DNA of 39,150 bases from Nemertoderma westbladi. Its lineage: Eukaryota > Animalia > Xenacoelomorpha. A model generated the notes under the pieces. That model saw nothing but the letters and a program-made list of their open reading frames with translations, did not search any database and was not told the origin of the DNA. The position numbers and the translations under genes were made by a program. Shown here in pieces: positions 1-19,951 of the stretch; position 1 is the stretch's first letter, and each line of letters opens with the position of its first letter. The DNA is taken from NCBI GenBank assembly GCA_032718475.1, contig JAUCBJ010001627.1, positions 1-39,150 on the forward strand, read 5' to 3'.

Positions 1-1400
1 CGATGGTAGCAAGACGGAAGAATATCTACAGTTCCAGCGTATGTACAGCAATAAGATCTTGACAAAAAATATCACACAGGTGGAGTGCCTTAAATATCTA
101 CAAGTCTATACAGGGGGGCCAGCTTACGATATCGTGACGCAATACCAAGGTATTGAAGGAGGATTCACGACTGCATGGAGAGCCCTGGACAGGGAATTTG
201 GCCATCCTGCGAAGATTATCTGACAAACCTTAAGGGGAATAACATCAGGCGGACCCGCAGATACCCCCATTAGCATCAAGACATTCGCTAACAAAGTAGA
301 GAAAGCGCTAATAGTATTAAAGACTCTAGATGCACCTTACAAACTCAATGCATCAAACAACATCACCACGATAGCGCAGGCACTACCGATCTGGCTGAGA
401 AACAAATGGAGAAAGATCGCTTTCTCCACTCGAGAAAAGAAAGGTGCAGAGCCAGGTGGAGGAGATGTCGAACTTCCTTAACTACGAGGCGGAATTAATA
501 ACAGATCCAGTCTATAGTGAGGACAGTCTAGGTAAGGCACCAAAACGGAATACAGCCGACCTAAACCGGAACATAGTCCGGCGGATGCATTTCCGAAAGT
601 GAGACAGTCGCTACACATGCGGCCACACAGGGGACTTCTAGTCCACAGAGAGCTGGGAGTAGAGCCACACCGTGGCAGGGACAGAGGCAAAGTAACAACA
701 CAAACAAATACAAACCCAATACCCCCAGTAGGCCGAGTCCAAGTAACCAAAACTACTAAACCGCTAGATATGAATCTAAGCGCAATACGTGAAGCGCTAT
801 ATAAGGAATGCTACAATCCCGAATACAAATGTCAATTGCATAGAGATGGGACCCATAAGACCATAGACTGTAAGCATTGGCAGGCGTTACTCAAACAAGA
901 TCGGATAGCCTACACTGGTAAGAATGGACTATGTCATCGATGCGTGGTAGGAGGACACTGGAACGATCTCGATCCACGTGACCACGATCTCAAGCAAAGA
1001 CGATGTCATGAAGATGAGGAGGGGACGATGCGAGATTGCAGCGATAACCCCAGGGTGCGACTATGGGGCTACCATCGAAGCCATTCAGATAATAGAGTCG
1101 ATCAACATTAACGGCAGGCGACCTATGAAGATCGAGATCGAGCAGTACCGGTACCTGGACGACATCGACTTCTCCGTACCAGAACTGGACGTCCCAAAAG
1201 TGTCTCTCATAGTCGGCATGGACTGTCCGACGGCCCATGAGAGACTACAGACCATTTTCGGCGATGGCAGGGAGCGAGACCCGGTGGCCATTCTCACGCC
1301 ATTCGGATGGACGCTCAGTGGCCCAATAAAGACGAGGATCCCATTTAGCATGTCCGAAACATCTGGATGCATGCTGTCTGGTACTGTTGAGGACATAGAG
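1..1400 (+). pseudogene. gag: Decayed gag and protease/RT-linker region of an older BEL/Pao element (outer element)
   Basis: DUF1759-like LKYLQVYTGGPAYDIV...AWRALDREFGHP with in-frame TGA at 221-223 and frameshifts; knuckles CQLHRDGTHKTIDC and CHRCVVGGH; DDIDFSVPELDVPKVSLIVGMD...TPFGWTLSG aligns with the inner element's DDVDLRCPQLDVNRITLLIGLD...TIMGWTLCG. RT/RNase H/IN are absent downstream. Confidence 0.85.
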
Positions 1401-1476
1401 GAGAAACCAAAGACGGGCGATGGGGAGGTCCCACATGATAAGCAGCCCGAGCAGAAACCAAAGATGGGCGATGGGG

Positions 1477-2400
1477 CTAATTTATATATGCACTACTTGT
1501 GGGCACTGAGGGCGCCACGTGAGGAGTTGATGGGGGGGGGGGGGGAGGTATGTACGCATACCATAATAGAAGGGTACGGGCATGCCGGCGTGCATGATAC
1601 ATAGGTGTAGGTAGTTAATTACGTACGTCGGATGGGTACAAAACGTACCAACGTACCTAATTTATATATGCACTATTGTGGGCACGGAGGGCGCCACGTA
1701 AGGAGTTGAGGGGGGGGGGGGTATGTACGCATACCGTAATAGAAGGGTATGGGTGTGCCGGCATGCATGATACATAGGTGTAGGTAGTTAATTACGTACA
1801 TTGGATGGGTACAAAATGTACCAACGTACCTAATTTACATATGCACTATTGTGGGCACTGATGGCGCCACGTGAGGAGTTGAGGGGGGGTATGCACGCAT
1901 ACCTTAGTAGAGGGGTACATAGTACTGTAAACTTGTGGGCACTGAGGGCACCAAGTAAGGAGTTGAGGGGGGGGGTATGTACGCATACCATAATAGAATG
2001 GTACGGGCGTGCCGGCGTGCATGATACATAGGTGTAGCTAGTTAATTACGTACGTCGGATGGGTACAAAATGTACCAACATACCTAATTTACATACGCAC
2101 TATTGTGGGCACTTAGGGTGCCATGTAAGGAGTTGAGGGGGGGGGGGGTATGTACGCATACCATAATAGAAGGGTATGGGTGTGCCGGCATGCATGATAC
2201 ATAGGTGTAGGTAGTTAATTACGTACATTGGATGGGTACAAAATGTACCAACGTACCTAATTTACATATGCACTATTGTGGGCACTGATGGCGCCACGTG
2301 AGGAGTTGAGGGGGGGTATGCACGCATACCTTAGTAGAGGGGTACATAGTACCGTAAACTTGTGGGCACAGAGGGCACCACGTGAGGAGTTGAGGGGGAT
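1477..2400. repeat. Tandem array of ~180-bp units with shorter variants
   Basis: Unit ctaatttatatatgcactattgtgggcac...gaggagttga(G)n...gggtacaaaa(c/t)gtaccaacgtac recurs at 1477, 1657, 1830, 2083, 2257; long-long-short higher-order pattern. Confidence 0.95.
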
Positions 2401-2800
2401 ATGTAGGCGTGGTAGGATAGACTGTGTAGGCCGCATGAACTAGACTACTGTAGCGCATAATCCGTAGTTCAGAGTTAGAACATTGCTACAGAGCCAGAAG
2501 GATATCTGGTAGGAAGCTACTACAAGAGTAAGAAATTGTAGCTAGTCTTCTCTGTAGACAAGTAGTGATGAATTACTTACATAGTAATTGAGTAGTAGAT
2601 ATAGTAATAGCATGTCAGTTGAGGTTGGGGAGTAAACACTGCACTATAGAATCAGGGGTAAATTAGCACATAGAGGGGAACACTAGTATGAAACATAGTC
2701 TGAAGAAGATAGGAGGTAGGCCATCACTGATTTAAACTAATTAAGACCATACTTAGTTATCTCTTGCCCTACTGAGCCTTTCAAAGGCACCACCAGTCTG

Positions 2801-3120
2801 GTGAGAGAGGAGAATCGTGATGGCGGGGAAACTATGAAGGAGTTTATCGTATTCCGTGGAGAGGGGCGGATAGATATGGTCCCAGATGACGTGGAGACAG
2901 TAGAGGATGATGGTGGGATAAGAAAGGGGTCAGGAGGGTCGAGTAGAACTATATTGCTGCATTTAGCGGCCATGAATGGAGATATTTTTCTGATTGACCT
3001 AGCGACCTATGGTAAGAAGACCGGGCCAAAGTTGAACCGCCTACCGGATGCGATGCAGAAGCTGGTAAGGTCAAAGACTATGATGGAGATTGGATCGGCG
3101 ATACGTGGCAACGCGGAGAG
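2801..3120 (+). pseudogene. N-terminal part of a DEDDy-like 3'-5' exonuclease ORF of the outer element
   Basis: PDDVETV (ExoI DxE), ILLHLAAMNGDIFLIDL, LPDAMQKLVRSKTMMEIGSAIRGN (ExoII region); cut at 3120 by the inner LTR. Confidence 0.7.
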
Positions 3121-4618
3121 TGTTGCCGTTATCCCAACACCAGGGGGGAAAAACGCCGATGCTGGAGACGTGACTTTACAGACCACCGAGCCCCGGCCAG
3201 TCACCGGATATTGATTGTGGAGAAGGAATGATTTCTGAGATGCAGGTTGCGGTTGAGAAAAAGCTGCATTAGTTGGATATACTCTTTAATGTAACTGAAC
3301 TCTGTTGAACCTGATTGAGAATAATTTTGGGCTTCCCCAAATCAATATACACCAAATATTCACAATAATTATACACGACAATATAAATCCCTACAGTATA
3401 TTATTTAATTACCCACTGTTCGCTCAGATTTTAGCCTAACTAATGTTCCCCAGATTTTCCCTCGGTCCTAGTCTTGATGCCGTAGTGTCGGTGTCGGTCG
3501 ACCCTGTCGCGTGTCCGTTCCACCCCTCCCGAACCCCGAAGGGAACGATCATCGAGAACCAGCACGGCTTGGCTAAGGGTCGGTCCAGTCGGTAGACTCT
3601 GTCGCGTATCCGTACCACCCCTCTCGAACCCCGAAGGGATCGGTCATCGAGAACCAGTACGGCTTGGCTAGGAGTCTGTCGTGTCGGTGGACCCGTTCGC
3701 GTGTCCGTCCAACCCCTCACGAACCCCGAAGGGTTCAATCATCGAGAACCAGTACGGCTTGGCTAGAGGTCCGTCGGTTCATCGCAGAAACCCAACCACC
3801 TAGGCTTTCCGAGTCCCTTTCAGGCTCGTAGTCGCTTCGGCAGCCGAGAAACTGCTCCGAACAGTCGGTAGGCCAGTAGAGTCTAGTCCTTTGTCTTTCG
3901 ACCCCGTCGCGTGTCCGTCCCACCCCTCACGAACCCCGAAGGGAACGATCATCGAGAACCAGTACGGCTTGGCTAAGGGGTCTGTCGTCGGTTCCCGTCG
4001 CAAATCCCTGGTGCAAGCAGCTGGCGTTCCGATGTCCTTTTCAGGCTCGTAGTAACTGCTGTTGACCAGAGACCGCTAAGGGCAGTCCTCGTCAAACCCT
4101 TCCTCTGTAAGTCGGTAGACCCTTTCGCGTGTCCGTCCCACCCCTCACGAACTCCGAAGGGAACGATCATCGAGAACCAGTACAGCTTGGCTAGGGGTCT
4201 GTCGTGTCGTTTCCCGTCGCAAGTCCCTGACACAAGCAGCTGGCGTTCCGATGTCCTTTTCAGGCTCATAATAACTGCTGTTGGCCAGGGACCGCTAAGG
4301 GCAGTCCTTGTCCTTTAGGCCTGGCGCGTTACCAAATCCACCTCTACAGGCAGCAGGAAGTTGGCCAGGGCCTAATAGTAATCAGGCTAACCTGAATACT
4401 GCTTGAATTTTCCATCCCCCTTGGCCCTTATAAACATGAAATTAGTCCCGTACCCTGTAAGTCGCCCCAAAGTTCGCCCATAAATCGCCCCCAGTTTATA
4501 GAATGTGCCCAAAACCCATGGTCCCGCACCCACCCAGTAGTAATATCGGAATAATCATTTTAAATTAATACAAAAAAATATTCAACTCGCGTTATGGAAA
4601 GTTGAAATACCGCGAACA
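3121..4618 (-). repeat. 3' LTR (1498 bp)
   Basis: Direct repeat of 16925-18418 with roughly 8 substitutions and 3 small indels counted by eye; TG...CA ends. Confidence 0.98.
3500..4199 (-). repeat. Five ~82-nt structured repeat units in LTR U3 (mirrored at 17304-18003)
   Basis: Units at 3500-3581, 3595-3676, 3690-3771, 3900-3982, 4118-4199, each closed by a self-complementary stem. Confidence 0.92.
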
Positions 4619-4627
4619 GTCCCCCCC
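4619..4627 (-). promoter_or_regulatory. Polypurine tract
   Basis: Minus strand reads GGGGGGGAC immediately before the TGTTCGCG start of the 3' LTR. Confidence 0.85.
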
Positions 4628-4792
4628 AATGACCTTCGTGAAGTCTGTCGGTAGATTGAGTTTGCGTAGGTCATTCCCAATATAAAAAACCCAAATTTAA
4701 TATTGCATAGTTTTAATTAATTTGGCCTAGAGTTTATATATATATGTATAAAAATAAATGTTCGATAAATGTTCCTGGAATATCCCGATCCA

Positions 4793-7393
4793 CTATTTCT
4801 TTCTCTGATACGCCTTTCGCCTCTTCGCCCGTCGGCTCTCATCGATCGCTATAGATGGTAGAGGAGCGTCAACATCCATCGTGAGCAACGCTTCGGCTTG
4901 TCTCCTGGCGGCTCTTCCTTTCGATGGCAGTGGGATCATATCGGATCGTTGTTCCAACTCGGAGTTGCGAGCCTCGAGGAACCACTCTCCGTCACCGAAC
5001 TCCTCTTTATACGAGTATAAGCGTCTAATGACTTCGAATGGGCCGAATAATCCAGCGCTCAGCAACAAATCCACGTAATGGAAAGGCAGCGTGGCCGACG
5101 TGTGGAGGCGTTCCGGGAAGGAGAAGTACCCGCACGCCATCTCCTGCGCGATATTCCGAGCGTTTCTCCGAACCTTGGTCTTTATGTGGCTGTTTGCGTA
5201 TGTTTCAAACATGACCATATTTCCCATAGTGGTAACGTCTTTGGTAGGACATTTGATATAGCAGCGGGGGCTAGAGGAATGTCCACGGAAACCGCACGTG
5301 GTGCAGAGGTTATATAGGATCGGACAGACGGAAACGTCGTGGCCCGATGTCGCGCAGTATGGGCAATAGAGTATCCCGAGGAGCTGGAGGCACGAATTGG
5401 TAACCCGATTCCTTCTACCGCGTGGGCACTGCTCCGAACCACAGTCGCCGCACACCTCCAACTGCATCTCTCGACTGGGAAATATCGGAATCGGGACGCC
5501 GACGTAATACTCGAGTCGCCGGTCGCTCTTCTGAATATTCGCGGTGGTCGGTAGCCCGCGGAAGGCTGAGCTTTTGCGTAGTAGGTCCTCGCTATGATAA
5601 CCTTCTTTGTGTCCCGTCGGTCTCAACTCGGACGACCGTTTCTGGCGGTGGATCCATTCGGTTTGCTCGGCGTACCAACGGGTTAGTCGCATAGGATCCT
5701 GAGGAACGGAGGGTGTAGTAGCCACCGCTGGTCGGCGAAGAGGTGCCGGGGTTTTCGACGGAGGGATTCCGAGGAGATCGTCGGGAGTCGGCGCAGCGCT
5801 GGGGCCCTTCTCGACCAATATCGCTGAGCGGGTACGTTGATTGCTGGTACTCAGAATCTCCGACGACCAGTCTTCGCCACCCGGGAAAGGATACGGGGAT
5901 AACCTTTGGCACGTATCGCCGAAGTCGTTTAACGCGAAGGTAGTAACCAACTCCCTCGCAGGGCTACCGAAGCCGAGTGGTGAGGAAACGCCCGCTTCCG
6001 TCGTTGGTTCGGCGGAGGCAACCCGTTTGGCTGCCGGTTGGTAAGCGGCCTCCGGCTCGAGTTGTCGCTTCGGGGTGGAGAGAAGAACACCCTCATTTAG
6101 CCATATTTCTTCCCCTTCCGACGAAATCAGAGGCTCCTCCGCACCGAGAAGATCGGTAATCGTAGGGATGTCGTAAGGTCCGCTCTCGTCCCAGGAATCG
6201 ATAACGGCGAGCGTTTTCGTCTCTCCCGGTGTGATGTTCTCAACCGCTTTGAACGCGTGGTTTATAACCTCGTTCCAGTCGTAGTCGACGAAGGAAAGAG
6301 GAACCGCCGTAATGAGGTTATCTAGAGTTTTACAGATAAATTTAGCGACGGTATAGCACTCCATAACGACGTAGACGTAGTTCCGTCGATCGGGATTCTC
6401 CCACCTTTGGTGTATCGTCCACTTCCGGTCAACGTCCTTCCATCGACCCTCTCGCTCGCTCTTTATTTCTAATCCCGGGTATCCACCATATATTTTATTA
6501 TAGTCCCGGAATTTCTGGGGTTTGAAGTCGATGCCGCCGTTTAGCACAGCGAGGTAGCCGATCCCGGATTTCGTCGGTCTCACCTCTCGGAATCCTCGCA
6601 TTAACTCGGCGAATCGTAACCAGGCTAGTAGCGTTTGAGTGTCGACGCAATGGCTAAGGGCGTTGAGGTCGTCTCGTCGGTTTCTTCCTGAAGGAGTGTT
6701 CGTATAGTTGTTCCGAACGTCCGCCTTTATATCCGACCCGATTTTAATGACGTCGAAGTCGAAGAGGATCTTTTGGATTTCCGGAGGTAGCAACCAGATC
6801 GCTCCGGCTGCCTGCACTTCCTGTCTGGGCGTCGGAAATATTCGACACACCAATACCAAACCGTCCAGTGTTCCGAGGATGACGACCAAGGATCGACCGT
6901 ATTCTTTCGCCCCGTACTTTTCTTGGTAGTCGTCGCGATTTTGGATGGTCGATATACGTTCCTCTCGAAGCGTCGCCGTACACTCCGACAGGTTTCCCCA
7001 GTGGGCGAGGTACGTACTCTTGTCGTCGACGAAACTTTGACATCTCGCCAACGTAATCGCTTTCGAGGTGGGCGTCGCGTTTCCCTCGTTGTCGTAGATC
7101 AAACATCGGGATCTGTAGACGCTTTGCCGGAACGTTTCCCAAAACGACGAATCGTCCCCTCCGGTTGCCTTTGCGTTCCGAGTTCTTTTCAGTCTCGTAC
7201 TAGCATCGGCTAACCGGAGGGCTCGTAGATTCTTGGAATCCGGTCCCTCTCGCCCGGTGAATTTAACGACTCGCACGTTCTCATTTAGCAGGGTGCTCCA
7301 ATTTGTATCAAAGTCAGGGGATCCGGGTTGCGAATATTCCAGTAGATCTATCGTGTTACGTAATTCGCCGATAATTTGGCGATTTGGGTCCAT
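4793..7393 (-). CDS. 866-aa accessory protein: DEDDy/RNase D/WRN-like 3'-5' exonuclease, Pro/Ser-rich linker, CCHC zinc-knuckle cluster
   Basis: Uninterrupted ORF, sense to pol. ExoI LIYDNEG; LPPEIQKILFDFDVIKIGSDIKAD (ExoII); CVDTQ; SGIGYLA; QRWENPDRRNYVYVVME (ExoIII-like, Yx3E); knuckles CPYCATSGHDVSVC (Cx2Cx4Hx4C) and CTTCGFRGHSSSPRC; basic C-terminus RRAKRRKAYQRKK. Confidence 0.88.
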   Translation of the reverse strand: MDPNRQIIGELRNTIDLLEYSQPGSPDFDTNWSTLLNENVRVVKFTGREGPDSKNLRALRLADASTRLKRTRNAKATGGDDSSFWETFRQSVYRSRCLIYDNEGNATPTSKAITLARCQSFVDDKSTYLAHWGNLSECTATLREERISTIQNRDDYQEKYGAKEYGRSLVVILGTLDGLVLVCRIFPTPRQEVQAAGAIWLLPPEIQKILFDFDVIKIGSDIKADVRNNYTNTPSGRNRRDDLNALSHCVDTQTLLAWLRFAELMRGFREVRPTKSGIGYLAVLNGGIDFKPQKFRDYNKIYGGYPGLEIKSEREGRWKDVDRKWTIHQRWENPDRRNYVYVVMECYTVAKFICKTLDNLITAVPLSFVDYDWNEVINHAFKAVENITPGETKTLAVIDSWDESGPYDIPTITDLLGAEEPLISSEGEEIWLNEGVLLSTPKRQLEPEAAYQPAAKRVASAEPTTEAGVSSPLGFGSPARELVTTFALNDFGDTCQRLSPYPFPGGEDWSSEILSTSNQRTRSAILVEKGPSAAPTPDDLLGIPPSKTPAPLRRPAVATTPSVPQDPMRLTRWYAEQTEWIHRQKRSSELRPTGHKEGYHSEDLLRKSSAFRGLPTTANIQKSDRRLEYYVGVPIPIFPSREMQLEVCGDCGSEQCPRGRRNRVTNSCLQLLGILYCPYCATSGHDVSVCPILYNLCTTCGFRGHSSSPRCYIKCPTKDVTTMGNMVMFETYANSHIKTKVRRNARNIAQEMACGYFSFPERLHTSATLPFHYVDLLLSAGLFGPFEVIRRLYSYKEEFGDGEWFLEARNSELEQRSDMIPLPSKGRAARRQAEALLTMDVDAPLPSIAIDESRRAKRRKAYQRKK

Positions 7394-7931
7394 ATTTACG
7401 ATTATATCCGTTACAAATTAGATCAGTTAATTATAAGTCCAGAAAGTCTGAAACTATAGTGATTGCAGAATAATTCAGTTCAGTTTATTAAATAACATTG
7501 CTATATAGGCATCTATCATCTTATTGCTAATACATTCAGCATTTATAGTTACTATAACTATACATTAATATCCAACCAGTTTTATGACTTTTTATGTCCT
7601 TTCTTTTTTCCAATTCTTTTCTTTAGACTTTTTTATACCTTTTTTTGTCTTTTTTCATTTCTCATTATTATTTCATCACATTTCATTTATTTCAACACAT
7701 TTCATCATTTAGTTCCACCATTTATTTCACATTTTGTTTATTTCCACATCATCATTGGGGTTATAGCCCCCCGGCTATCATCATTTGTTATAAGCGCAGC
7801 ACCAGGGTGCGCATCATTACATTTTCATCATCATACGCGTCATCATTCAGGTTTATAGTAGAGTTGTCTGATCCTTTTCATCATTTCCAACTACATTCAA
7901 TCATCTTCTTTGGTTAATCTTTGTCGTGGAA

Positions 7932-8331
7932 GGGGTGTTACGCGGCAATCTGGGATCTACAGCTGGGCTAGTTACACCGCCTACGCCCCAAACTGCACAC
8001 GTAACGGACAATGAAGACGCTGGAAGTGAAGTCACGTGGATGCACCAGGGACCCACCAGAATAACACTCCCAACAACATAAAGCTCAGTCGACGAAGTCA
8101 TGTGGGATGGGGTTACGCAACATTCTGGGATCTACAGCTGGACTAGTTACACCGCCTACGCCCCAAAATCCACGCAACGGTCCCACCAGAATAACGCGAC
8201 TGAGCAACATAAAACCCTCTATCGTCGAAGTCATGTGGATGCACCATGGACCCACCAGAATAACGGGATAGAGGGGGTGTTGCGCGGCAATCCGGGATCT
8301 ACAGCTGGACTAGTTACACCGCGTACGCCCC
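7932..8331. repeat. Three ~58-bp imperfect self-complementary repeats in the IN-ORF3 spacer
   Basis: Copies of ggggtgttacgcggcaatctgggatctacagctgg..tagttacaccgcctacgcccc at 7932-7989, 8109-8164, 8274-8331, interleaved with gaagtca(c/t)gtggatgcacca..gacccaccagaataac repeats. Confidence 0.85.
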
Positions 8332-8625
8332 GAACAGCGCACACAACGGACAACATAACATACTACAATGGATACAATGAATTCCACTTCAAATCTTTAC
8401 CATTTCCAATAATCCAATATCGTAGGTCCCGATGACCAAAATCAGGGTAAACAATACATAAACGACCCTGCGTCAGTCGAAACATCTGCAGGGTGACGCT
8501 GGACTCCACATAACACACGAGGAAACACAAATACCATTGTGTGGTTACAGTTGGTTTAAAGGGGGGTCCATTTTCATTGTCGATAAATCACAGTTTAAAG
8601 AGTTTGTCAACATGATGAGAAGGGT

Positions 8626-11600
8626 TTAAACGCATTTGTAATTGTCACCAATGTCTGCAGCAGGATCCTGAGTAGGGAACTTATCACCTCTCGTAGAGTC
8701 ACCACTGTCATTGCCTTCGAGAAGGCACAGCCTCTGGATAGGGCGTTGGTAGTGGCCCTTTTTATAATTGTCACCAATGTCTGCAGCAGGATCTTGAGTA
8801 GGGAACTTATCACCTCTCGTAGAGTCACCGCTGTCATTGCTTTCAAGAAGGCAGAGCCTCTGGATAGGGCGTTGGTAATGGCCCTTTGCCGTTCGTATCG
8901 TCACAGTCCTCGCAAGTCCGTCTTTACTCGGATGTATTGTCACAACTCGCGCCACAGGCCAGTGGACGCGGTCTTTAAGGTCTTCTTTTACTAGTACCAT
9001 GTCGCCAACTTCGACATTCCTGTAGGTGTTGTTCCACTTCCTCCTGGTCCGGAGGGTTATGAGGTACTCCTGGGCCCAGATTCTCCACCAATGCACTGCC
9101 AACGCTTGGGCCTTCTTCCAGTTTATATGTCTCGCAATATCATTGGGATCCGGAAACATTGTCTCCGGGAGAACATGAGTTTTAGGTCTCCCCAGTAGGT
9201 GATTAGGAGTAAGGGGCTCCAGGTCTGTGGGGTCGTCGCGGATAGGGACAATGGGTCGGTTGTTCAGGGTAGCCGTGATCTCGCAGAATGTTGTGCGGAG
9301 GGTGTCATGGGTTACCCGGGTGTCTCCTAGAGCGATGCGCATGGATCGTTTCACTAGGTCGATCAGTTTCTCCCATACCCCGCTCGTATGGGGCGCTAAG
9401 GGGGTTTGGAAGTGCCACTGTATCTGGTGTTCCTTCCAGACTTGGGATGCGGTGTTATCGGTAAACCATCCCTCGATCGCCTCTCTAAGTTCTCTTTCTC
9501 CTCCCACAAAGTTTGTGCCATTATCGGAATACATGTGACGACATGTCCCATTGCTTGCCACGAACCGACGCAGAGCGTTGATGAATGCGTGTTGCGTAAG
9601 GTTCACCACAATGTCTAGGTAGATTGCCCTAGACCTAAGGCATGTAAATATGGCCCCCAGCATTTGATGTTGGATCGTCGTTCAATGACCGTAAACGGAC
9701 CGAAACAGTCCACTCCGGTGACGTAGAATGGTGGGGAATCGGGCTGTAGACGGGTGGCTGGTAAGTCGGCCATCTTTTGTGTGAGTGGTGGCGCTAGATA
9801 TCTTCTGCAGATAAAGCAACGTTTCAACACTTTCCGGATCAGTGGCTGGATGTGTGTGATCCAATATCTTTGTCTTATATTAGCTATAATCCAGTTTTGT
9901 CCTGCGTGATGGTTCTCCTCGTGACATTGTTGAATTAATAGCTTGGCTAGTGTTGAAGTTCCGGGCAGAAGCGCCGGGTATTTAACCTCATATTCGACCG
10001 GGGCGTTTGCCATCCGGGTATTCAGTCGGATCAGTCCGTCCTCTCCCATCATTGGTCTCAGTTGGTAGACTGGGCTATCCGGTTTCAAGGTCTTGCCCAC
10101 ACTGAGTTGTTCCCACTCATCGGGGAAACTTTCTCTCTGGACATATCCAACGATACACTTCTCTGCGATAATGAGTTCTTGTATACTCCGTTGAACTATC
10201 GGCTTGTTGTCTTTCCACCTTAGGAAGTTGTGAAGGGTTATAATGTGGTGGATGAGCCGTCTCATTGATGAGGTTCGCTCGATCAACAGATATAAAGACG
10301 CCGCTGGTTGAATGATCGTCGCAACGTTATAGTGCCTGCCCGAGTCCTTTGCAGGCTCAGTCAGACAACTATAAATTTCCACTGCGTTGCTTCTATGGAT
10401 TTTACGGATCTCTTTATCGTCCTCGGAGTATTTTCCGCTATCGAGTTCGGGGTCGAATCGGGTACTCCATGTTAATTGTGGCTGTTGTAGGAATTCCGGG
10501 CCTGTAAGCCAGAGTTTACTTTTACCGAGTTGTTTTGGGGTGGCGCCTCGGCTTGATAAGTCCGCTGGGTTTTCTTTCCCGTTCACATGGTGCCACTGTT
10601 CTCGGCCGGTACACTGTTTAATCTCTGTGGCTCGGTTCGCAACAAACGTAGTGTGACGCCGTGATGGAGAGTGGAGATAATAGAGAACTATACTCGAATC
10701 GACCCAGAAGTGTTGAGACTCGATGGGGATTCGTAGGTTCCGCATGACCATGCGATTCTGTCTTACTGCCCAAACTGCAGCCTGTAGCTCGAGTCTTGGA
10801 ATCGTTGCTACGAATTCCCCGGATACTGTCTTGGCTTTAGAAAATAAGAAGCTCGTATCGCCGTTTCCATCGTTGCTGAGTCTTCGTAAGAAGGTGACTA
10901 CGCCAATTCCGGTATTCGAAGCATCCGAGAAGGTATGGAGCTGGAAGATATCGGTGGGTAGTTTATCGAGGAAGAACGGTCGAGGTATCCGCATAAGATG
11001 TAGGTGTTCGAGCTGCTCCGTCCATCCTCTCCACCTGACGCTGAGGTGTAGGGGGAGTTCTTCGTCCCATCCCAGTCCTTCTATCCACATTTCCTTAATC
11101 AGGTTCATTCCGGCCAAGGTTACTGGAGATATAAAATTTAGTGGGTCGAAGATGGCGCTTTTTATCAACAAACATCCCCTTTTTGTCATAGGCTTGGGTA
11201 GGGGTTTATATTTGAAAATGAATTCGTCTGATTCTATGTCCCATTCAATCCCAAGTACACGGTGTTCCACATCCTCCGAATACATTTTGTTATTTTCCAG
11301 TCGGATGTCCTCCGGAAACTTTTCCATAAGTGTTTTGTCGTGGGATCTGAACTTCACGAGCGGAAAACCTCCTTTCTTTAGACATTCTACCATCCCCATT
11401 GCTAGCTGATATGCCTCGTCCACATTATCTGCGCCGGCGCATCCATCGTCCACGTAAAAGCATCGTCGGATGGTTTCTATGACGGTTGGAGGGAACTCGT
11501 TTTCGCACATAGTTGCCGTCCTCTTCAGCATGTCACTGCATGCTACCAGCGAGTCCTTAGCACCGAAGATCCTGACGACCATACGCATTATGTCTACGTC

Positions 11601-12524
11601 CTTTATCGTAAGTTGACTAATCTCCTGTTGAGTTAGCGTTTTATCCGTACATAGGATACGTAGACAGTCTGAGTCTCTTGGTAGCGTACGAACTTGATGA
11701 AACATGGCCTTGATGTCGCAGGTGAATGCTACCCGGTTTTCCCTGAACCTGATCAGTACGCCGATGAGTGTACTATATATGTTGGGTCCCGTGTAAAGCT
11801 GACTGTTTAGGGATTCGCCCTGGTACATAGCGGCGGCATCATTTACCACTCGGATTTTCCCATCCTTCCGGGCTTCTACCACATAGTGGGTTGGGAGGTA
11901 ATATGTTCTTTTACCACCTTGCAGTTCATTCCGTGGTACCATTTCTGCTAATCCATCGTCGAGATATCCTTGGATTACGGTATTATATTTCTCCTTTATC
12001 TCGGGTTGGTCATTCAGCCGGCGTAGAATCCCCTTAAGTCGCCTAAGTGCCATGCTGGCGTTGTTTGCCATTGGTTTGTTTGGGTCCTTCCATAACATAG
12101 GTGAACACCAGTGTCCGTCTTTGAACGTGGCCTGGTTGAGAACGTCCATACAATATTGATCCTCTTCGGACGGGTTTTCGTCCTTTTCAGCGAACTCCTG
12201 GGTCTCTAGATTAAAGTATTTTGTCATCTCTTGTTGGGTTTTCTCGTTCTCCAGAAACAAATCCTCGTCAAGGTCCGTAGCTGAGCAATAACCCACGGAG
12301 GTTGCATTCTCTTTAATCTGACATTTGGGATATGTGTCAGTAGTTTCTTTCTTAATGCCGCAGAGTGTCCATCCCATTATTGTTCGTTCAGCGTAAAATC
12401 CATCATCCTGTTTTATAGATCGGGCGATATCTCCGGTGGGGATGTGTAGTTCCGGTGTATCAAGTCCGATCAGTAGAGTGATGCGGTTTACGTCCAACTG
12501 CGGACACCTCAGATCTACATCGTC
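8626..12524 (-). CDS. pol: Pol: reverse transcriptase, RNase H, integrase (one frameshift near 9654-9658)
   Basis: RT DIKAMFHQV, FG, FYVDD; RNase H TFSDAS, RLELQAA, WVDS, NPADLSSRG; IN HHCC (HEENHH...CFIC), GVDCFGP, SDNGTNF, GVWE. A G5 run one base short splits KCWG/AIFTCL and may be a sequencing error. Confidence 0.96.
8635..8886 (-). repeat. 126-bp in-frame tandem duplication at the integrase C-terminus
   Basis: Copies 8635-8760 and 8761-8886 encode KGHYQRPIQRLCLLE(S/G)NDSGDSTRGDKFPTQDPAADIGDNYK twice. Confidence 0.97.
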
Positions 12525-13492
12525 TCAGTCCAATTGTATGAGGGGGGCGTACTCGGCCGATTGTCGGAACCGCACTCGGAGGTCTGTATGTACCAAGGCG
12601 TTCTTGATGTTTAACTTAACCGTTTCGTAGCCCTTCATCACTCCTTCCATCTGGAGTTGCACCTCCCCGGACTCTACCTCTCTGTTATCGGTGATGGTTT
12701 GTATGGGCCGTTTACAAGGTTCATATTCTAGGCCGAGTTGCTCGAGGAAATCCCGGTCGATGATGGTTCCGTCAGACCCGTTATCAAGGAACGCGAGCGT
12801 CGTCAGGGATTTGCCAACTCCTTGAATCCTTACTGGGATTACCTTTGCGAAGACCATGTAGCGGCGATTTATAAGATTAATCGTGGCTGAAATATTTGTT
12901 ACTTGTGGTGTATCGGTGGAGATTTTAAACGGGTTGGTTTCTCTCCGTTGGGTTGTCCGGGTTCCTTTGAAAACGTGGTTCGTTTCTCCCCTTCGCTTGG
13001 CTTCGATCCGAAAGGGGAGGGTAGTGAAATCGAAGTTCGCGGGGATGTGGAGGAGCGTGTGGTGACGTTGGTCGTTACAGACGGCACAGCACGATCTTTG
13101 GTCGCAATCCCGAACATAGTGACCTGTTCCAAGACACCGGAAGCATCCTCGGTGTTTCATTATCGCCTCGAAGCGTGGGACAAGTTCGGCGAACTGAAAC
13201 TTCCTGCAGAATTCCACTTTATGTTTCTCTCCACAGAAGAGACAGAGGAGGGAGTTTGTGATGCCTTCCCTCTCGGGTGCCCAATTCGCAAGGTAACAAC
13301 ACGCCCATTCCTCGGCGGATGTCGGTTCCTCGTAGTCTTCGTCGTCGGAATCCTCGGCCATGGTGATGGCCATCGTACTCACCGGTGGGGGGCGGAATCT
13401 CGGTTTCGGAGGGGGTATCTTACTCCTGGAGTTGCTCTCTATTAAATCCAACTTGGCGAGACTCTGTTTTGAAAACATCGAGTCATTCATGG
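12525..13492 (-). CDS. gag: Gag C-terminal triple zinc knuckle and aspartic protease; in-frame TGA at 12525-12527
   Basis: CLFCGEKHKVEFC, CFRCLGTGHYVRDC, CAVCNDQRHHTLLH (BEL signature); protease AFLDNGSDGT; same frame as the RT ORF. Confidence 0.95.
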
Positions 13493-14670
13493 TGTAAAAG
13501 CTTTTGCGGATATACTCAGTCCCCCTCGCCCGCAAGGTACCGTTATAGGTGTTTTAACGGACATAAAAGTCATTCTTCGATATGTGTGCTTTGGTGGACA
13601 TGGTAAGGCAAAAAACCCGCAATGCGTAAAATACCCTGGCACAGCTTAGCCTTGATGATTCAGATTACGACATCTAACAGCTGGTTGCTGACATGGAAAC
13701 GGCCATTGGACACATGGTTTTTTGTTTAGCTTAACAGCCAATCAGAGCGATTTTTTCTGTCGATGTGGAGATATTTGGCCGATCGTGCTAGGAGTGTTCA
13801 GTCTTACTGTTTTTCTTGATACTATTGTGTTGTTTCTATCTAGGCCAGGAACACCAGCTCACCGGCTCTAGAGTCAATTCGTTTCAGACTTTGGAAGAAA
13901 CATTAGTAGGCTTAAATTATAGAGCGTATAACTGTTATCTCAGTTCAGTCTTACATTATCGGTTTAACATACATTATTATACTGCTATTTACTGTTGTCA
14001 TTGTTGTATCAGTTGGTTGAATATTATTTGGAGAACATCTATAAAGAACCCAAATTTCCCAATTTTCTTGATACACTACAGGTTAGAGAGACGGGTTACA
14101 TATAGCGATTGCGACTTATATTATTGTGGTTTGTAGTGAATTTAATGCTATTTGGTAAGCACTACATGAGTCAGTTGCTGTTCTCTTTATATATGATAAA
14201 ATTCATTGACGGTCGGCAAATTAGTGAGCAGTATTGTGTGTTACCGGTAGTGTGCATGATTGTGACTGATAACTAAGCATTTCCTAAAGAATGCGCCTCA
14301 TACGTGAATCATAAGCCTTACCGACTTACCGTTGTGTTTAGTACAAGTCATATCTCTGTTTACCTAGATAGAGCGCCACGTCCTAAAGGAACTGTTAATA
14401 TTTCCCGAAAGTGAATAATATTAGTCAGAAATTATTATTAACGATCAATCGAATAATACAGTAAGCTTACACTGCAATAATAATCTAAGCCCTCAGAATC
14501 CAGTCTCCCGGGTATATCCAGCGGGTGAATGGACGCGCACTAGGCTGGCTTCTGCTAATGTTGTGTTTATTGGTATTAAATATTTGTCAATTTCTAAAGT
14601 CTATTTATAAACCAAAAGACATATAAATTTTGGCAGGTTAAACTGCTAAAGGTCTTCAAAAGCGCGTACA
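13493..14670 (+). mobile_element. Solo LTR (1178 bp) of an unrelated family inserted in gag
   Basis: TGTA...TACA termini; 5-bp TSD CATGG at 13488-13492 and 14671-14675; removal restores DDISEAM-NDSMFS in frame; non-coding. Strand is inferred from TCAGT Inr-like motifs and ATTAAA at 14575-14580. Confidence 0.9.
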
Positions 14671-16488
14671 CATGGCTTCGGAGATATCATCCAGGAATGC
14701 CGACATTTCAAGGAAGCTAGGATCTCGATCTGGATGTCTGCGCCGGAGATCTACGCATTTATAAGCCCACTTACTTTGTAGCCATCCGGGGAACTTCCGG
14801 GCGATCTGTCGGAGGTTTAGAATGTTGTTCAACTGGTCCTCCTTATTTAAGGGTTTCAGAGTATAGTAGGCATCCTTCATAGAGTCGGAGAATTCCTGGA
14901 TGTTCTGTGGGTCCCCTAGTGATCCCGCGTCCTGTATCAGTCTCTCTAGAGTTTTATTAATTATAGTTCCGGTATTTCCGTATCTTTTATCTAGAGTTTT
15001 CCATGCGTCATAGTATGCCTCATGAGAACCTCCCTCAAAACATGCAATAATTCTGCGTGGTTTGTCACCCAGGTATTGCGACAAATATACCAATTTCTGT
15101 GCGTCGGCTATGCCCGTTGATCCAATCTGCGCAAAGAACCGTTTCTTGAATCTGAGGTAATCGACGGGATCTCCTTCGAAGGTGCGGATCTCCATCTTAG
15201 GCATGGCAAGGCGGTTTTCCAACGCCTGGATAATACTGACGTCGTCTGAACTGGAGTGACTCGGAGGGTTATAGTTATTGGCACTCACTCCCATACTCGA
15301 TGGATCAATGATAGGTGGAGTTTTAATGATGACGCGACTACGGATTTGTGGTGTGGATGTAAATGGGTTGTTGGATCGGGGAGTGGTGTCCCGTTCCGAG
15401 TCCCTTTCAGGCTCGTACTTGGGTACACTCGTTGTCGTGGGGTTGGATGGGAAACACGGTTCCTCATTTTTCAGCGTAACCGGTGGAGGATGGAACACCG
15501 GTGCTTGTGCCGATAACGTAGACTGTATGGTAGGCGGGATCTCGGGTTTCGGAAGTTTCGCCGCTGTTGGTGTAAATGACTTCTCTAATTCCGGTACCAG
15601 GATTGGTTCATATTCATGATCTATATCCCTTTCCCAGTCCTCATAGAGTTGAATATCTCATTCTATAAGTGCGGCTTCGTACTCCGCGAGTTTCGCGATA
15701 TCCGCATTCTTTTTGTGTATGAGAATCGCTTGGGCCTCGGCGTGTTGTTTACGCATTTCTGCTTCCCATTTACGTTGTTCGATCTCTCGTTCGGCCTCTC
15801 GTCCACGTTGTGCGGCCTGCCGTTCGGCCTCTTGTTCGGCCTCTCGTTTTTGCATTTCGGCGGCTAATACATCTTGCTCGGTTTGCAGTTGAATATACTC
15901 ATCTTCCATCTGAGCTTTGAGGGCTAATGCCTTCCGTTCTCGTAGCTGGTCTCGGAGTGGTTGACCCCCTTGAGAGCTGTGTGCTGAACCGGACACCGCG
16001 CTCCTAGCGCTGGAGTGCTGATTTCTAGAGGACCCCATTCTCTTTCGATATACTGCTGTCCTGGTGCTGGAGGTTCGCACTGATTCTGCGTCTGTTCTTT
16101 CAGCTCTCTTGTAGTACTGTTCTTCGTAGCCCCTCACGAGGCTAAGGGTCCTCCGGTGTTGTTTGCGGAATTCGTCTAGGCGTGCAACGTGTTCTTCCAA
16201 TTTGGGATAATTTACCTGGTCGGTGGCGGGGATGAGTTCTTGGTACGCCTGTATCATTCTCTCATATCTTTGTAAGATACTTCGGATACTCTGAAGCTGA
16301 GTTTGTATCTCGTTGAGGGGGGTTTCGACTCCCTTGAGTTGTTTCTCTATACGTTGGTACGCTCGAGTGACTCCGCCTTTGAGAGCACCTAGTCGACGAG
16401 CCATGTTCTTGATGTTCGGTACCTCGTCGGTTTCCGAGTCTGTGTGGTGATCGATCTCGTCGGTATCGGATACGTTATTTGTCGTCAT
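14671..16488 (-). CDS. gag: Gag N-terminal coiled coil and DUF1759-like capsid region; in-frame TGA at 15658-15660
   Basis: ORFs 15658-16488 and 14656-15498 share a frame separated by one TGA; PKMEIRTFEGDPVDYLRF, KLVYLSQYL, AWKTLDKRYG. Confidence 0.93.
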
Positions 16489-16676
16489 TGTAGCGCCTCG
16501 TCGATAGCTAGATATGCGATGTCATAAAACAGTTCCTCGTAGGTATTGTACTCAGCTTGGACCACCCGAACGGTAATCCTGAATCGTCCGACGTTCGTTC
16601 CTTGTACTTCAACCTCGACGTGCCAGATTCCTGGCTCAACTTGGATTATATTAATGGGTGTGATCGATACTTCCAT
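16485..16676 (-). CDS. 63-aa upstream ORF overlapping the gag start (ATGA)
   Basis: Its TGA (16487-16485) overlaps the gag ATG (16488-16486); protein-like amphipathic pattern; no recognised homology. Confidence 0.45.
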   Translation of the reverse strand: MEVSITPINIIQVEPGIWHVEVEVQGTNVGRFRITVRVVQAEYNTYEELFYDIAYLAIDEALQ

Positions 16677-16909
16677 TCCCTGTTAACAACTCTCCAAATA
16701 TGTGATCTGCCGACTACGAGTTGGTTAGATCGAGTTTGTTGATTAATTAAACCACGACTTAGTCTTAACTCAAATACCAGAGTTTCCTCGTAGTGGGTGC
16801 TGGCAAGCACGTAGAGAGTTTTGAAGAGTATTGTAGGATTCTCAACTTCCACCAGTTGAAGTTGGCCGCGTTTTATTCTCAATTTTGACACCCTGTCAAA
16901 ATTGACTGT

Positions 16910-16922
16910 AATTATTCTCAAT
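16910..16922 (-). promoter_or_regulatory. Non-tRNA primer-binding site candidate (self-priming)
   Basis: 2 nt inside the 5' LTR edge; minus strand ATTGAGAATAATT, no TGG; exact reverse complement of LTR 17118-17130. Confidence 0.7.
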
Positions 16923-16924
16923 TT

Positions 16925-18418
16925 TGTTGCCGTTATCCCAACACCAGGGGGGAAAAACGCCGATGCTGGAGACGTGACTTTACAGACCACCGAGCCCCGG
17001 CCAGTCACCGGATATTGATTGTGGAGAAGGAATGATTTCTGAGATGCAGGTTGCGGTTGAGAAAAAGCTGCATTAGTTGGATATACTCTTTAATGTAACT
17101 GAACTCTGTTGAACCTGATTGAGAATAATTTTGGGCTTCCCCAAATCAATATACACCAAATATTCACAATAATTATACACGACAATATAAATCCCTACAG
17201 TATATTATTTAATTACCCACTGTTCGCTCAGATTTTAGCCTAACTAATGTTCCCCAGATTTTCCCTCGGTCCTAGTCTTGATGCCGTAGTGTCGGTGTCG
17301 GTCGACCCTGTCGCGTGTCCGTTCCACCCCTCCCGAACCCCGAAGGGAACGATCATCGAGAACCAGCACGGCTTGGCTAAGGGTCGGTCCAGTCGGTAGA
17401 CTCTGTCGCGTATCCGTACCACCCCTCTCGAACCCCGAAGGGATCGGTCATCGAGAACCAGTACGGCTTGGCTAGGAGTCTGTCGTGTCGGTGGACCCGT
17501 TCGCGTGTCCGTCCCACCCCTCACGAACCCCGAAGGGTTCGATCATCGAGAACCAGTACGGCTTGGCTAGGGGTCCGTCGGTTCATCGCAGAAACCCAAC
17601 CACCTAGGCTTTCCGAGTCCCTTTCAGGCTCGTAGTCGCTTCGGCAGCCGAGAAACTGCTCCGAACAGTCGGTAGGCCAGTAGAGTCTAGTCCTTTGTCT
17701 TTCGACCCCGTCGCGTGTCCGTCCCACCCCTCACGAACCCCGAAGGGAATGATCATCGAGAACCAGTACGGCTTGGCTAAGGGGTCTGTCGTCGGTTCCC
17801 GTCGCAAATCCCTGGTGCAAGCAGCTGGCGTTCCGATGTCCTTTTCAGGCTCGTAGTAACTGCTGTTGACCAGAGACCGCTAAGGGCAGTCCTCGTCAAA
17901 CCCTTCCTCTGTAAGTCGGTAGACCCTTTCGCGTGTCCGTCCCACCCCTCACGAACCCCGAAGGGAACGATCATCGAGAACCAGTACGGCTTGGCTAGGG
18001 GTCTGTCGTGTCGTTTCCCGTCGCAAGTCCCTGACACAAGCAGCTGGCGTTCCGATGTCCTTTTCAGGCTCGTAATAACTGCTGTTGGCCAGGGACCGCT
18101 AAGGGCAGTCCTTGTCCTTTAGGCCTGGCGCGTTACCAAATCCACCTCTACAGGCAGCAGGAAGTTGGCCAGGGCCTAATAGTAATCAGGCTAACCTGAA
18201 TACTGCTTGAATTTTCCATCCCCCCCTGGCCCTTATAAACATGAAATTAGTCCCGTACCCTGTAAGTCGCCCCAAAGTTCGCCCATAAATCGCCCCCAGT
18301 TTATAGAATGTGCCCAAAACCCATGGTCCCGCACCCAGTAGTAATATCGGAATAATCATTTTAAATTAATACAAAAAATATTCAACTCGCGTTATGGAAA
18401 GTTGAAATACCGCGAACA
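16925..18418 (-). repeat. 5' LTR (1494 bp)
   Basis: Direct repeat of 3121-4618; minus-strand TATA-like GTATATT near 17148-17154 and ATTAAA at 17094-17089 suggest long U3, short R, ~150-nt U5. Confidence 0.98.
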
Positions 18419-18672
18419 GAGAGGATTATTGGACTGGGCACCCCGAATGAATAAATGTTAAAATGTTAATGTTAGATCTTCTGGACATGCAGGTAGTCTA
18501 CATGGCTATGACGAAACCTGATGGAAGAGGATTGATGGATAACACGGGACAATATGGGGCCGTGGCGATGGGTCAGTTGATGGGACTCACGTGCCACAAG
18601 CCGATGGAGTGGAACAAGTTCCAAGAGGAATACGGTGAGGGACTTGCGGATTCACTCAAGTGGGGGGCGTGA
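18419..18672 (+). pseudogene. Continuation of the outer element's exonuclease ORF
   Basis: LLDMQVVY...GQYGAVAMGQLMGLTCHKPMEWNKFQEEYG aligns with inner ORF3 CVDTQTLL...TKSGIGYLAVLNGGIDFKPQKFRDYNKIYG; stop and aaatgtta micro-duplication frameshift at 18452-18475. Confidence 0.7.
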
Positions 18673-18710
18673 CGGGGAGAGACAAGTCATATCACCTCTG
18701 AAAGGGGGGG

Positions 18711-19951
18711 TTAAGACACATCGTGTAGACGAATATATAATATACGTACTATAGTCAAGTACAACATTTTTCCAATTAGCTACTGGGACTGGGGACTAAT
18801 TGACTAGAACAGGAGGACGAGACATTAGACGGATCCCATTTCTCAAGTGTGGCCACACTAATGAGAATGTGGGAGCCCAACAGGAGCGTACGGAGAGTGA
18901 GATCAAAGGGGGTTGAGTATTGGGGAAGTATGGAAGGGGAGGTACGAGAGTTAAAGGGGGGGAAACTAAAGAGTGTGAGGCCTGAGTGTAGGGAGCGAGC
19001 GGAGAGGAGGATGAGTCCTAAGGGACTAGTGAGGGAGGAAGGGACAGCAAAGTCCGATAGGTACAATTGTGTGAGGAGTGACGGCGATCATCTAAAACAG
19101 AGACGCCAGATGCCTTGGTACAGCATAGCTCGCATATGTACCAAGGATGGGTAGTGAAAACAGACCCATGGGGGCTGGCCTGGAAAGCCGACCCCAAGAA
19201 AAAAAAATTCCACCCCACATCCAATAATATTAGATTGGATTCAAGCGGAATTGAAGCGCACTTAAGGTTGATGCTATCTTCTTACTGGGAAGATAGCATG
19301 GGGGGGGGGGGGGTTGTAAGCGGATTCAATTCCCTGCACTACCCACCCAAAATGGGACTAGTGGCATTTTACCAATATAGTTGGCGAGGTGACATTACCA
19401 ATAATAATGTCACCTCACAACCAACTAAGGCGATACATGCCGCAAGCCACAGGGAGAGTTGAGAGGTCAAACCATCTCAGAGGGACAAACAGGCTAGCAA
19501 GGCTAGCACATGGGGATAGTGGCAACAGGGAGTGGCGAGGTGACAATTAATCAGGTTAAGCCAATGGTGGGTGGGAGAGCATATTGGGAGTGATTAGAGC
19601 GCATCTATTGGACACTCAGGCCACTCAGTAGTGTAGAGCTGATTTGTATGTGTTAATAATAATATAACCGTTGCAGTTATTGATTCTGATTCAGTTGGTT
19701 TTCCTATACAGTTGTGAGACCGGAACAGTTTTTAACCATCGTCGTCGTCACTACCGTGCTATTATATTCTGACTGTGCTATTATTACGTTCTGTGATTAT
19801 AAAGACTGACAGTAAAAACTCAATTATTTGAACGGCCTTTGGCCTATTACATATCCAGACTACAGCTTTAGCAGCCTACGGACGCTGCGACGCATATAAC
19901 TCACACACCGGTCGGGATTCATTACTGCCAACTCTGTTGGATCACGTTTCA
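18711..19951 (+). repeat. Putative degenerate 3' LTR of the outer element
   Basis: Follows purine tract GAAAGGGGGGG and ends TTTCA where a different repeat starts; no TG at the left edge and no partner LTR in the window. Confidence 0.35.

What the first reader, a model, noticed from the sequence alone, without database searches (positions are those of the whole stretch)
4793..7393. BEL/Pao retrotransposon carries an intact exonuclease plus zinc-knuckle gene in the env position
Seen: an unbroken 866-aa sense ORF between integrase and the PPT, with no obvious signal peptide or transmembrane segment, DnaQ-fold motifs at ~6340-7110 (DNE; KIGSDIKAD; VDTQ; W...YVVME) and a Cys/His cluster at ~5260-5455; it looks more CpG-rich than pol. 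Known: DEDDy proteins of the RNase D/WRN/EXD/MUT-7 group include small-RNA pathway factors, and from memory DEDDy extra ORFs occur in some rotifer and nematode LTR elements. Inference: a transposon-encoded RNA-binding nuclease that could counter piRNA/siRNA silencing or trim the primer, RNA or cDNA ends. ExoIII has E in place of D, so activity is uncertain.
Basis: partly seen in the sequence, partly recalled or inferred. Interest (0 to 1): 0.85.

Follow-up and report, generated by a model that had tools for sequence, protein, structure and literature searches.

The report
Retrotransposon carries disarmed exonuclease zinc-knuckle gene
A young BEL/Pao jumping gene carries an intact, conserved extra gene where a viral coat gene would sit; it resembles RNA-trimming exonucleases but lacks two of the four metal-binding residues, so it likely works as an RNA-binding helper and not as a nuclease.

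Summary
The 866-codon ORF (4793-7393, minus strand) is real and lies between integrase and PPT of a young BEL/Pao element (3121-18419; LTRs 99% identical; GAGAG duplication). No Pfam family matches it. Two remote homologs, a profile match to RNase D/PolA exonucleases (E 3.6e-4; 0 of 200 shuffles) and an ESM-Atlas lead support a DEDDy fold at aa ~125-370; both structure models failed. Three aligners put Q151 and R153 at the ExoI D/E positions, where both homologs keep D/E, and other copies vary only synonymously there. So this family most likely encodes a pseudo-nuclease plus CCHC knuckles, under purifying selection (14 of 18 listed exo-domain differences synonymous). The element is inserted inside a broken homologous gene of a second BEL/Pao element, so the cargo is shared by two families. 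It has no tRNA-type PBS but a 13-nt match suggesting self-priming. DEDDy ORF3s are known from rotifer LTR elements; I found none reported for BEL/Pao. New variant of a known kind; mechanism untested.

The parts
4793..7393 (-). ORF3, 866 aa: N-terminal extension, DEDDy-like domain, low-complexity linker, zinc knuckles, conserved C-terminal motif, basic tail
6284..7021 (-). DEDDy/RNase D-like domain, aa ~125-370
   Evidence: hhalign E 3.6e-4 over 189 columns; 0 of 200 column shuffles reach the score; homologs P0002, P0003
6935..6943 (-). ExoI position, Q151-N152-R153 where the DEDDy enzymes have D-x-E
   Evidence: three MAFFT modes agree; only synonymous differences listed at codons 151 and 153
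6719..6745 (-). ExoII, KIGSDIKAD, D225 kept
6359..6373 (-). ExoIII, Y341-x3-E345 (E also in P0002)
5261..5452 (-). Zinc-knuckle array: one degenerate unit (from C648), CX2CX4HX4C (677-690), CX2CX4HX5C (697-711)
   Evidence: sequence; aligned with P0002, E 1.6e-9 in the window; no Pfam hit on ORF3 itself
4796..4834 (-). Basic C-terminal tail, NLS-like (inferred); P0002 also ends in a basic tail
16925..18419 (-). 5' LTR, 1495 bp, TG...CA
3121..4619 (-). 3' LTR; 8 mismatches and 6 gap columns in 1500 against the 5' LTR; GAGAG duplicated at 3116-3120 and 18420-18424
4620..4630 (-). Polypurine tract
16910..16922 (-). PBS position: 13 nt, not TGG/tRNA-like, exactly complementary to LTR 17118-17130 (candidate self-priming site)
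   Evidence: 3 of 5000 and 1 of 2000 shuffles
14656..16521 (-). gag (DUF1759), in-frame stop at 15658-15660
13493..14670 (.). Nested 1178-bp TG...CA insertion with a CATGG duplication, probably a solo LTR of another high-copy family
   Evidence: (joint 13487 to 14671)
8626..13553 (-). Gag knuckles, protease, RT, RNase H, integrase, DUF5641; in-frame stop at 12525-12527, frame change near 9615-9681
7448..7460 (-). Candidate splice acceptor (TATAGTTTCAG) about 55 nt before the ORF3 ATG, no ATG between; untested
2741..3120 (+). 5' piece of a broken homologous exonuclease-like gene of an outer BEL/Pao element (D-x-E at ExoI, N at ExoII)
   Evidence: 10.8 bits with a profile of P0002+P0003 only, 0 of 1000 shuffles
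18421..18669 (+). 3' piece of the same outer gene, with one internal stop
   Evidence: 4.6 bits, 0 of 1000 shuffles (three-sequence profile); 2.7 bits, 3 of 1000 (two-sequence profile)
20..1322 (+). Broken gag and start of pol of the outer BEL/Pao element
   Evidence: tblastn to the inner gag E 3e-16, to the stretch before RT E 2e-6

Best explanation
ORF3 is an intact accessory gene of a BEL/Pao retrotransposon family whose exonuclease-like domain lacks both ExoI acidic residues, so it is likely a catalytically dead RNA-binding protein that would clamp and protect the element's own RNA against host decay and silencing. Shown: the ORF, its position, Q151/R153 at ExoI, the knuckles, and the excess of synonymous differences. 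Strongly inferred: the DEDDy fold (sequence profiles only, no usable model) and loss of two-metal catalysis (established DEDD chemistry, recalled: the ExoI Asp and Glu are metal ligands). Weakly inferred: expression from a spliced subgenomic RNA, nuclear import by the basic tail, and binding of the element's RNA through the dead pocket (where Arg could contact phosphate) together with the CCHC knuckles, in the manner of Exuperantia or EXD1.
For: Homologs P0002 (E 5.9e-5) and P0003 (E 1.7e-4) among 1.84 billion representatives; P0002 has the same exo + linker + knuckles + C-terminal motif layout. Their joint profile aligns end to end with 11 RNase D/PolA-exo sequences (E 3.6e-4; score 33.3 against a null maximum of 19.95 in 200 shuffles). 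ESM Atlas: 25 of 30 hits fall in a set marked DNA_pol_A_exo1 (50% of members), score 0.92, a lead. Catalytic columns read DEDYD in RNase D and P0003, DEDYE in P0002, QRDYE in ORF3, in 3 of 3 aligners. Differences between copies: 14 of 18 synonymous in the domain against 0.28 expected (p 2e-5, pN/pS about 0.11), 19 of 27 in the whole ORF. Codons 151 and 153 differ only synonymously. Dead DEDD domains that bind RNA are known: Exu and Exd1 (10.1101/2025.08.03.668247, passages); Maelstrom and EXD1 (PMC5408684, passages).
Against: No Pfam hit for ORF3; P0002 hits PF01612 only at E 0.2. ORF3 alone does not match the reference profile (hhalign E 0.38, hmmsearch E 0.37), and the joint hhalign probability is only 37%. 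The Atlas hit shares 164 features, under the 170 typical of true family members. Both AlphaFold models were unusable (pLDDT 33.6 and 37.2) and Foldseek gave nothing at E <= 0.001. D154 and D155 sit next to the ExoI position and could supply ligands. Nothing shows expression, location or RNA target.
Confidence: 0.42

Rival explanations
1. The dead domain is a decoy against host machinery: it binds partners or substrates of host DEDDy factors (EXD1/MUT-7-type small-RNA factors, or the Rrp6 exosome with Air-type knuckles) and so lowers silencing in trans.
For: Exo-like domain plus knuckles plus basic tail; weak Atlas leads for the knuckle part include CCHC/AIR2-like clusters (0.77-0.88). A helicase captured by retrotransposons shows weak silencing suppression (PMC6338049, passages).
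Against: No partner evidence. The domain is too diverged (about 25-30% even to its own kin) to argue that it keeps a host-protein interface. I could not place it among cellular subfamilies.
Confidence: 0.2
2. ORF3 assists self-primed reverse transcription: it anneals the RNA 5' end to the PBS-position sequence or holds the primer end; active relatives would trim that primer.
For: No TGG/tRNA-type PBS; a 13-nt exact complement lies 23-47 nt below TATA-like boxes in the LTR. CCHC knuckles are nucleocapsid-type RNA chaperones (recalled).
Against: A BEL family without ORF3 (L001, L002, L008) shows a similar, shorter complement (9 nt, 22 of 2000 shuffles), so self-priming may not need ORF3. Gag has its own knuckles. 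The start site is not mapped.
Confidence: 0.13
3. It is still an active exonuclease with a rearranged site (D154/D155, D225, E345), trimming RNA or cDNA ends.
For: ExoII D and ExoIII Y/E are kept; two Asp follow R153; homologs keep a full tetrad.
Against: All three aligners and hhalign put Q and R in the ligand columns without a gap; an Arg at the Glu position would repel metal (inference).
Confidence: 0.15
4. ORF3 is neutral captured cargo or an env substitute.
For: The copy is young (0.5% LTR divergence), so an open frame alone proves little; one hydrophobic window of 2.09.
Against: Synonymous excess; the same gene type in a second, diverged BEL/Pao element; no signal peptide seen; the hydrophobic stretch aligns inside the nuclease fold.
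Confidence: 0.06

Closest known systems
DEDDy ORF3 of bdelloid rotifer Juno and Vesta LTR retrotransposons and Athena/Terminon elements (PMC5408684, passages; PMC6431247, passages)
   Same: RNase D-like DEDDy ORF in the env position of an LTR element; no coiled-coil or transmembrane env features; function untested there too.
   Different: Here the carrier is BEL/Pao; the rotifer ORFs keep the invariant residues (DEED) whereas this one has Q-R-D-E; this protein is 866 aa with C-terminal CCHC knuckles. Sequence relationship to the rotifer ORFs was not tested (sequences not held).
DEDDy domain of Dada DNA transposons of Laccaria and Ectocarpus (PMC3706591, passages)
   Same: Transposon-borne DEDDy domain.
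   Different: Inside a DDE transposase, all four catalytic residues kept.
Pseudo-nucleases Exuperantia, EXD1, Maelstrom; Egalitarian (10.1101/2025.08.03.668247, passages)
   Same: DEDD-type fold used for RNA binding, with extra basic or zinc modules.
   Different: Cellular genes; no SAM, Lsm or EHD partner domain seen here; Egalitarian keeps its tetrad.
env genes of BEL/Pao elements Tas and Cer7 (PMC554778, passages)
   Same: Extra gene in a BEL/Pao element.
   Different: Those encode envelope proteins; ORF3 is unrelated in features.
Tf1/Sushi, Tcn1 and TAR self-priming (PMC6317226, passages)
   Same: PBS position complementary to a site in the element's own LTR rather than a tRNA 3' end.
   Different: Described for gypsy and copia lineages; here a BEL/Pao element, start site unmapped.

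Membership tests
BEL/Pao LTR retrotransposon | Gag DUF1759, Peptidase_A17 (RNase H region), integrase with DUF5641, order PR-RT-RH-IN | tested here: met
BEL/Pao LTR retrotransposon | TG...CA LTRs, 5-bp target duplication, PPT | tested here: met
BEL/Pao LTR retrotransposon | tRNA-complementary PBS | tested here: inconclusive
   No TGG start; self-complementary to the LTR. Host tRNAs not available, so a half-tRNA primer is not excluded.
DEDDy/DnaQ exonuclease fold | Profile similarity over the whole domain with ExoI-II-III in order | tested here: met
   through the two homologs; ORF3 alone is not significant
DEDDy/DnaQ exonuclease fold | Structural match | tested here: inconclusive
   pLDDT 33.6 and 37.2; Foldseek no hit at E <= 0.001
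Active DEDDy exonuclease | ExoI D-x-E | tested here: not met
   Q151-N-R153
Active DEDDy exonuclease | ExoII D | tested here: met
   D225
Active DEDDy exonuclease | ExoIII Y-x3-D | tested here: inconclusive
   Y341-x3-E345; E also in P0002
Active DEDDy exonuclease | 3'-5' exonuclease activity | not testable with these tools
   needs an assay
Rotifer-type retroelement DEDDy ORF3 | Separate ORF in the env position of an LTR element | tested here: met
Rotifer-type retroelement DEDDy ORF3 | Groups with Juno/Vesta/Athena ORFs in a tree | not tested
Env glycoprotein | Signal peptide and C-terminal transmembrane anchor | tested here: not met
   only hydrophobic window is aa 165-188, inside the exo-like domain

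The most novel reading that the evidence does not exclude
A lineage of self-priming BEL/Pao retrotransposons carries a mobile exonuclease-plus-zinc-knuckle accessory gene that exists in active and independently disarmed forms, and the disarmed form is a retrotransposon-encoded suppressor that mimics host DEDDy pseudo-nucleases (EXD1/Maelstrom type) to shield element RNA from piRNA or exosome attack in an animal.
Probability: 0.2. Interest if true: 0.8.

Novelty: new variant of a known kind. Interest (0 to 1): 0.5.

Why it matters
The role of DEDDy ORF3s has been open since they were reported in rotifers in 2017, where no departure from neutrality was shown for ORF3s and activity was untested. 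This case extends the cargo to BEL/Pao elements, shows it in two families of one genome, and shows selection on a version that has lost its ExoI ligands, which points to binding, not cutting, as a selected function. The natural Q/R form and the D/E homologs P0002 and P0003 make a ready comparison for assays. The separate hint of tRNA-independent priming in BEL/Pao is cheap to test by 5' mapping.

Tried and rejected
DNE (aa 101-103) as ExoI: rejected, outside the aligned domain although the query included it. Pfam on ORF3: only a chance Melibiase row, E 0.29. Word-index homolog searches: none at 476-1516 aa, none for the exo part at 185-592 aa, only P0002 itself with the alignment. PDB by sequence: nothing meaningful. 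AlphaFold single sequence and four-row alignment: unusable; Foldseek on the second model uninformative. Related loci with ORF3 or P0002: none in viral contigs or metagenome contigs; RT query none in viral contigs, 10 loci in metagenomes, 0 of 10 with an exo-type ORF, but only L001, L002 and L008 (apparently one family) reach well past an integrase end, and they run into an LTR and the next gag. P0002 against plasmids: no match. No genome held, so no full-length copy alignment. No RNA holder listed on record; X5 is only guessed to be RNA and is another organism label, so nothing is said about expression. No tRNA genes or Rfam hits. Depth was not used to rank genes. The genomic context of P0002 and P0003 could not be read, so it is unknown whether they sit in LTR elements. 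Single-sequence RNase D comparison gave only E 0.015 over ExoII.

Full report
Observation. The window holds a minus-strand LTR element from 3121 to 18419. Its LTRs (16925-18419 and 3121-4619) differ by 8 mismatches and 6 gap columns in 1500, start TG and end CA, and are flanked by GAGAG on both sides; a PPT lies at 4620-4630. Pfam gives the BEL/Pao set: DUF1759, Asp_protease_2, Peptidase_A17, Integrase_H2C2, DUF5641. BEL/Pao elements are confined to metazoans (PMC3601003, passage). In this copy gag-pol is broken by two in-frame stops, a frame change and a nested 1178-bp insertion. The extra ORF is intact: 866 aa, ATG 7393, stop 4793, sense to pol. It is richer in CpG than pol.

What the protein is. 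Pfam has no family for it and three word-index searches found no other relative. An exhaustive HMMER scan with aa 1-398 found two: P0002 (E 5.9e-5) and P0003 (E 1.7e-4), each a singleton without a name. P0002 repeats the whole layout: nuclease-like domain, low-complexity linker, three Cys/His units, a shared aromatic C-terminal motif and a basic tail (E 4e-13 and 1.6e-9 for the two domains against the window). I built a reference alignment of 11 RNase D and PolA 3'-5' exonuclease sequences (10 of the 25 listed hits were fetched, plus E. coli rnd). The three-sequence profile aligns to it over 189 columns, E 3.6e-4, probability 37%; 0 of 200 column shuffles reach the score (33.3 against a maximum of 19.95). 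ORF3 alone does not (E 0.38). The ESM Atlas puts 25 of 30 hits in a set labelled DNA_pol_A_exo1 at 0.92 with 164 shared features, a lead only. Structure prediction failed twice and the fold search is uninformative. The DEDDy fold is therefore well supported by sequence but not shown structurally; I put it at about 85-90%.

The active site. In all three MAFFT modes the five signature columns read DEDYD in E. coli RNase D and P0003, DEDYE in P0002 and QRDYE in ORF3. ExoI is thus Q151-N-R153. This is not private decay of one copy: laid on 6890-7010, three runs from three studies list nine differing sites at 2% or more, and codons 151 and 153 differ only synonymously; the fourth run had no cover. 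Loss of both ExoI ligands abolishes DEDD catalysis in the enzymes I know (recalled), so I put 'no nuclease activity' at about 80%.

Selection. Of the 27 distinct ORF3 sites listed are synonymous against the window's codon; in the nuclease-like domain 14 of 18, against 0.28 expected with a transition weight of 4 that I chose from the change counts (p 2e-5; pN/pS about 0.11); alone gives 9 of 12; the rest of the ORF 5 of 9 (p 0.08); gag/pol 5 of 12. One search shows only the 40 best-supported of 1825 sites, and each site was judged singly, so this is an indication, not a dN/dS.

A second carrier. The element is inserted into a plus-strand frame that is itself a homolog. The piece 2741-3118 scores 10.8 bits on a profile made without ORF3 (0 of 1000 shuffles); the piece 18421-18669 scores 4.6 bits (0 of 1000) and 2.7 bits (3 of 1000) on the two profiles. 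Upstream lie a broken BEL gag (E 3e-16) and the start of pol, downstream a PPT and probable LTR. Its ExoI column reads D-x-E and its ExoII column N, though a decayed copy cannot say much. Two diverged BEL/Pao families in one genome thus carry this gene type. In contrast 0 of 10 metagenome BEL loci (30-38% RT identity) show it, and the three that reach past integrase go straight into an LTR.

Priming. The sequence after the 5' LTR does not begin TGG. Positions +3 to +15 are the exact complement of LTR 1290-1302, 23 and 47 nt below TATA-like boxes and above an ATTAAA; 3 of 5000 and 1 of 2000 shuffles do as well. This is the geometry of self-priming described for Tf1/Sushi, Tcn1 and TAR (PMC6317226, passages). 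A BEL family without ORF3 has a weaker 9-nt version (22 of 2000), so the two features need not be linked. The start site is unmapped and a half-tRNA primer is not excluded.

Mechanism. I favour a dead-nuclease RNA-binding protein that guards the element's own RNA (0.42): the domain is conserved without its ExoI ligands, it is joined to RNA-binding-type knuckles and an NLS-like tail, a candidate acceptor lies 55 nt before the ATG, and cellular precedents exist (Exu, Exd1: 10.1101/2025.08.03.668247, passages). Rivals: decoy for host silencing or exosome factors (0.2), rearranged active nuclease (0.15), helper of self-priming (0.13), neutral cargo or env substitute (0.06). Target, location and expression are all untested.

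What is known. DEDDy ORF3s with intact DEED sites are described for rotifer Juno and Vesta elements and Athena/Terminons (PMC5408684, passages; PMC6431247, passages; cited again in PMC6338049, passages), and a DEDDy domain in some Dada transposons (PMC3706591, passages). For BEL/Pao, the survey PMC3118150 has 0 occurrences of 'exonuclease', and PMC554778 names env only for Tas and Cer7 (passages). Eight searches (listings and abstract starts seen) showed no paper on an exonuclease ORF3 or on self-priming in BEL/Pao; PMC5443660 (passage) mentions self-priming only for Tf1. The library lacks most subscription papers and Repbase, and I read no supplements, so an annotation may exist there. Unchecked notes of this scan report active and dead Rrp6-like or DEDDh ORF3s in LTR elements of other genomes (e1-7470661, e1-9291447, e1-9506579), which suggests the theme recurs; none matches this sequence.

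Verdict. Real feature; fold likely right; 'intact exonuclease' wrong. A new variant of a known kind: BEL/Pao carrier, zinc-knuckle fusion, conserved loss of ExoI, shared by two families. Interest 0.5.

Noticed in passing
window 16910-16922 and 17118-17130 (also 3314-3326): No tRNA-type PBS; the 13 nt after the 5' LTR are exactly complementary to an LTR site just below TATA-like boxes, and pair in the predicted fold: candidate Tf1-like self-priming in a BEL/Pao element.
   Followed up: partly
L002 5196-5690 (same family in L001, L008): Tandem BEL elements sharing one LTR, no ORF3; the first 9 nt after the LTR are complementary to an LTR site 78 nt from its end (22 of 2000 shuffles).
   Followed up: partly
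window 1-3120 and 18420-19950: Older plus-strand BEL/Pao element with broken gag, mostly deleted pol, tandem repeats at 1495-2400, an exonuclease-like gene split by the younger element, a G-rich PPT at ~19300-19314 and a probable LTR from ~19315 to ~19951.
   Followed up: partly
window 13493-14670: Nested TG...CA element with a 5-bp duplication and roughly 10-25 times the contig depth of the rest; probably a solo LTR of a very abundant family.
   Followed up: partly
window 3492-4312 and 17296-18116: The LTR U3 holds five ~95-bp repeats and two ~107-bp repeats, CpG-rich.
   Followed up: no
window 7929-8353: Three ~83-bp repeats in the spacer between integrase and ORF3, possibly regulatory.
   Followed up: no
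window 8635-8886: 126-bp tandem duplication at the integrase C-terminus; contigs that skip it exist in X1 and X3.
   Followed up: no
window 16810-16910: Two perfect hairpins directly after the PBS position in the leader, candidates for packaging or priming signals.
   Followed up: no
window 9219-10002 and 10060-12108: Joints show copies with internal pol deletions; none of the 15 joints shown (49 not shown) deletes ORF3.
   Followed up: no
window 24175-25629: Non-LTR (LINE-type) RT fragment, RVT_1 E 8e-28 with DUF6451.
   Followed up: no
window 19950-20783: MITE-like element with long imperfect inverted arms.
   Followed up: no
window 37020-39150: Duplicated and inverted ~760-bp repeats around an 8-bp microsatellite.
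   Followed up: no
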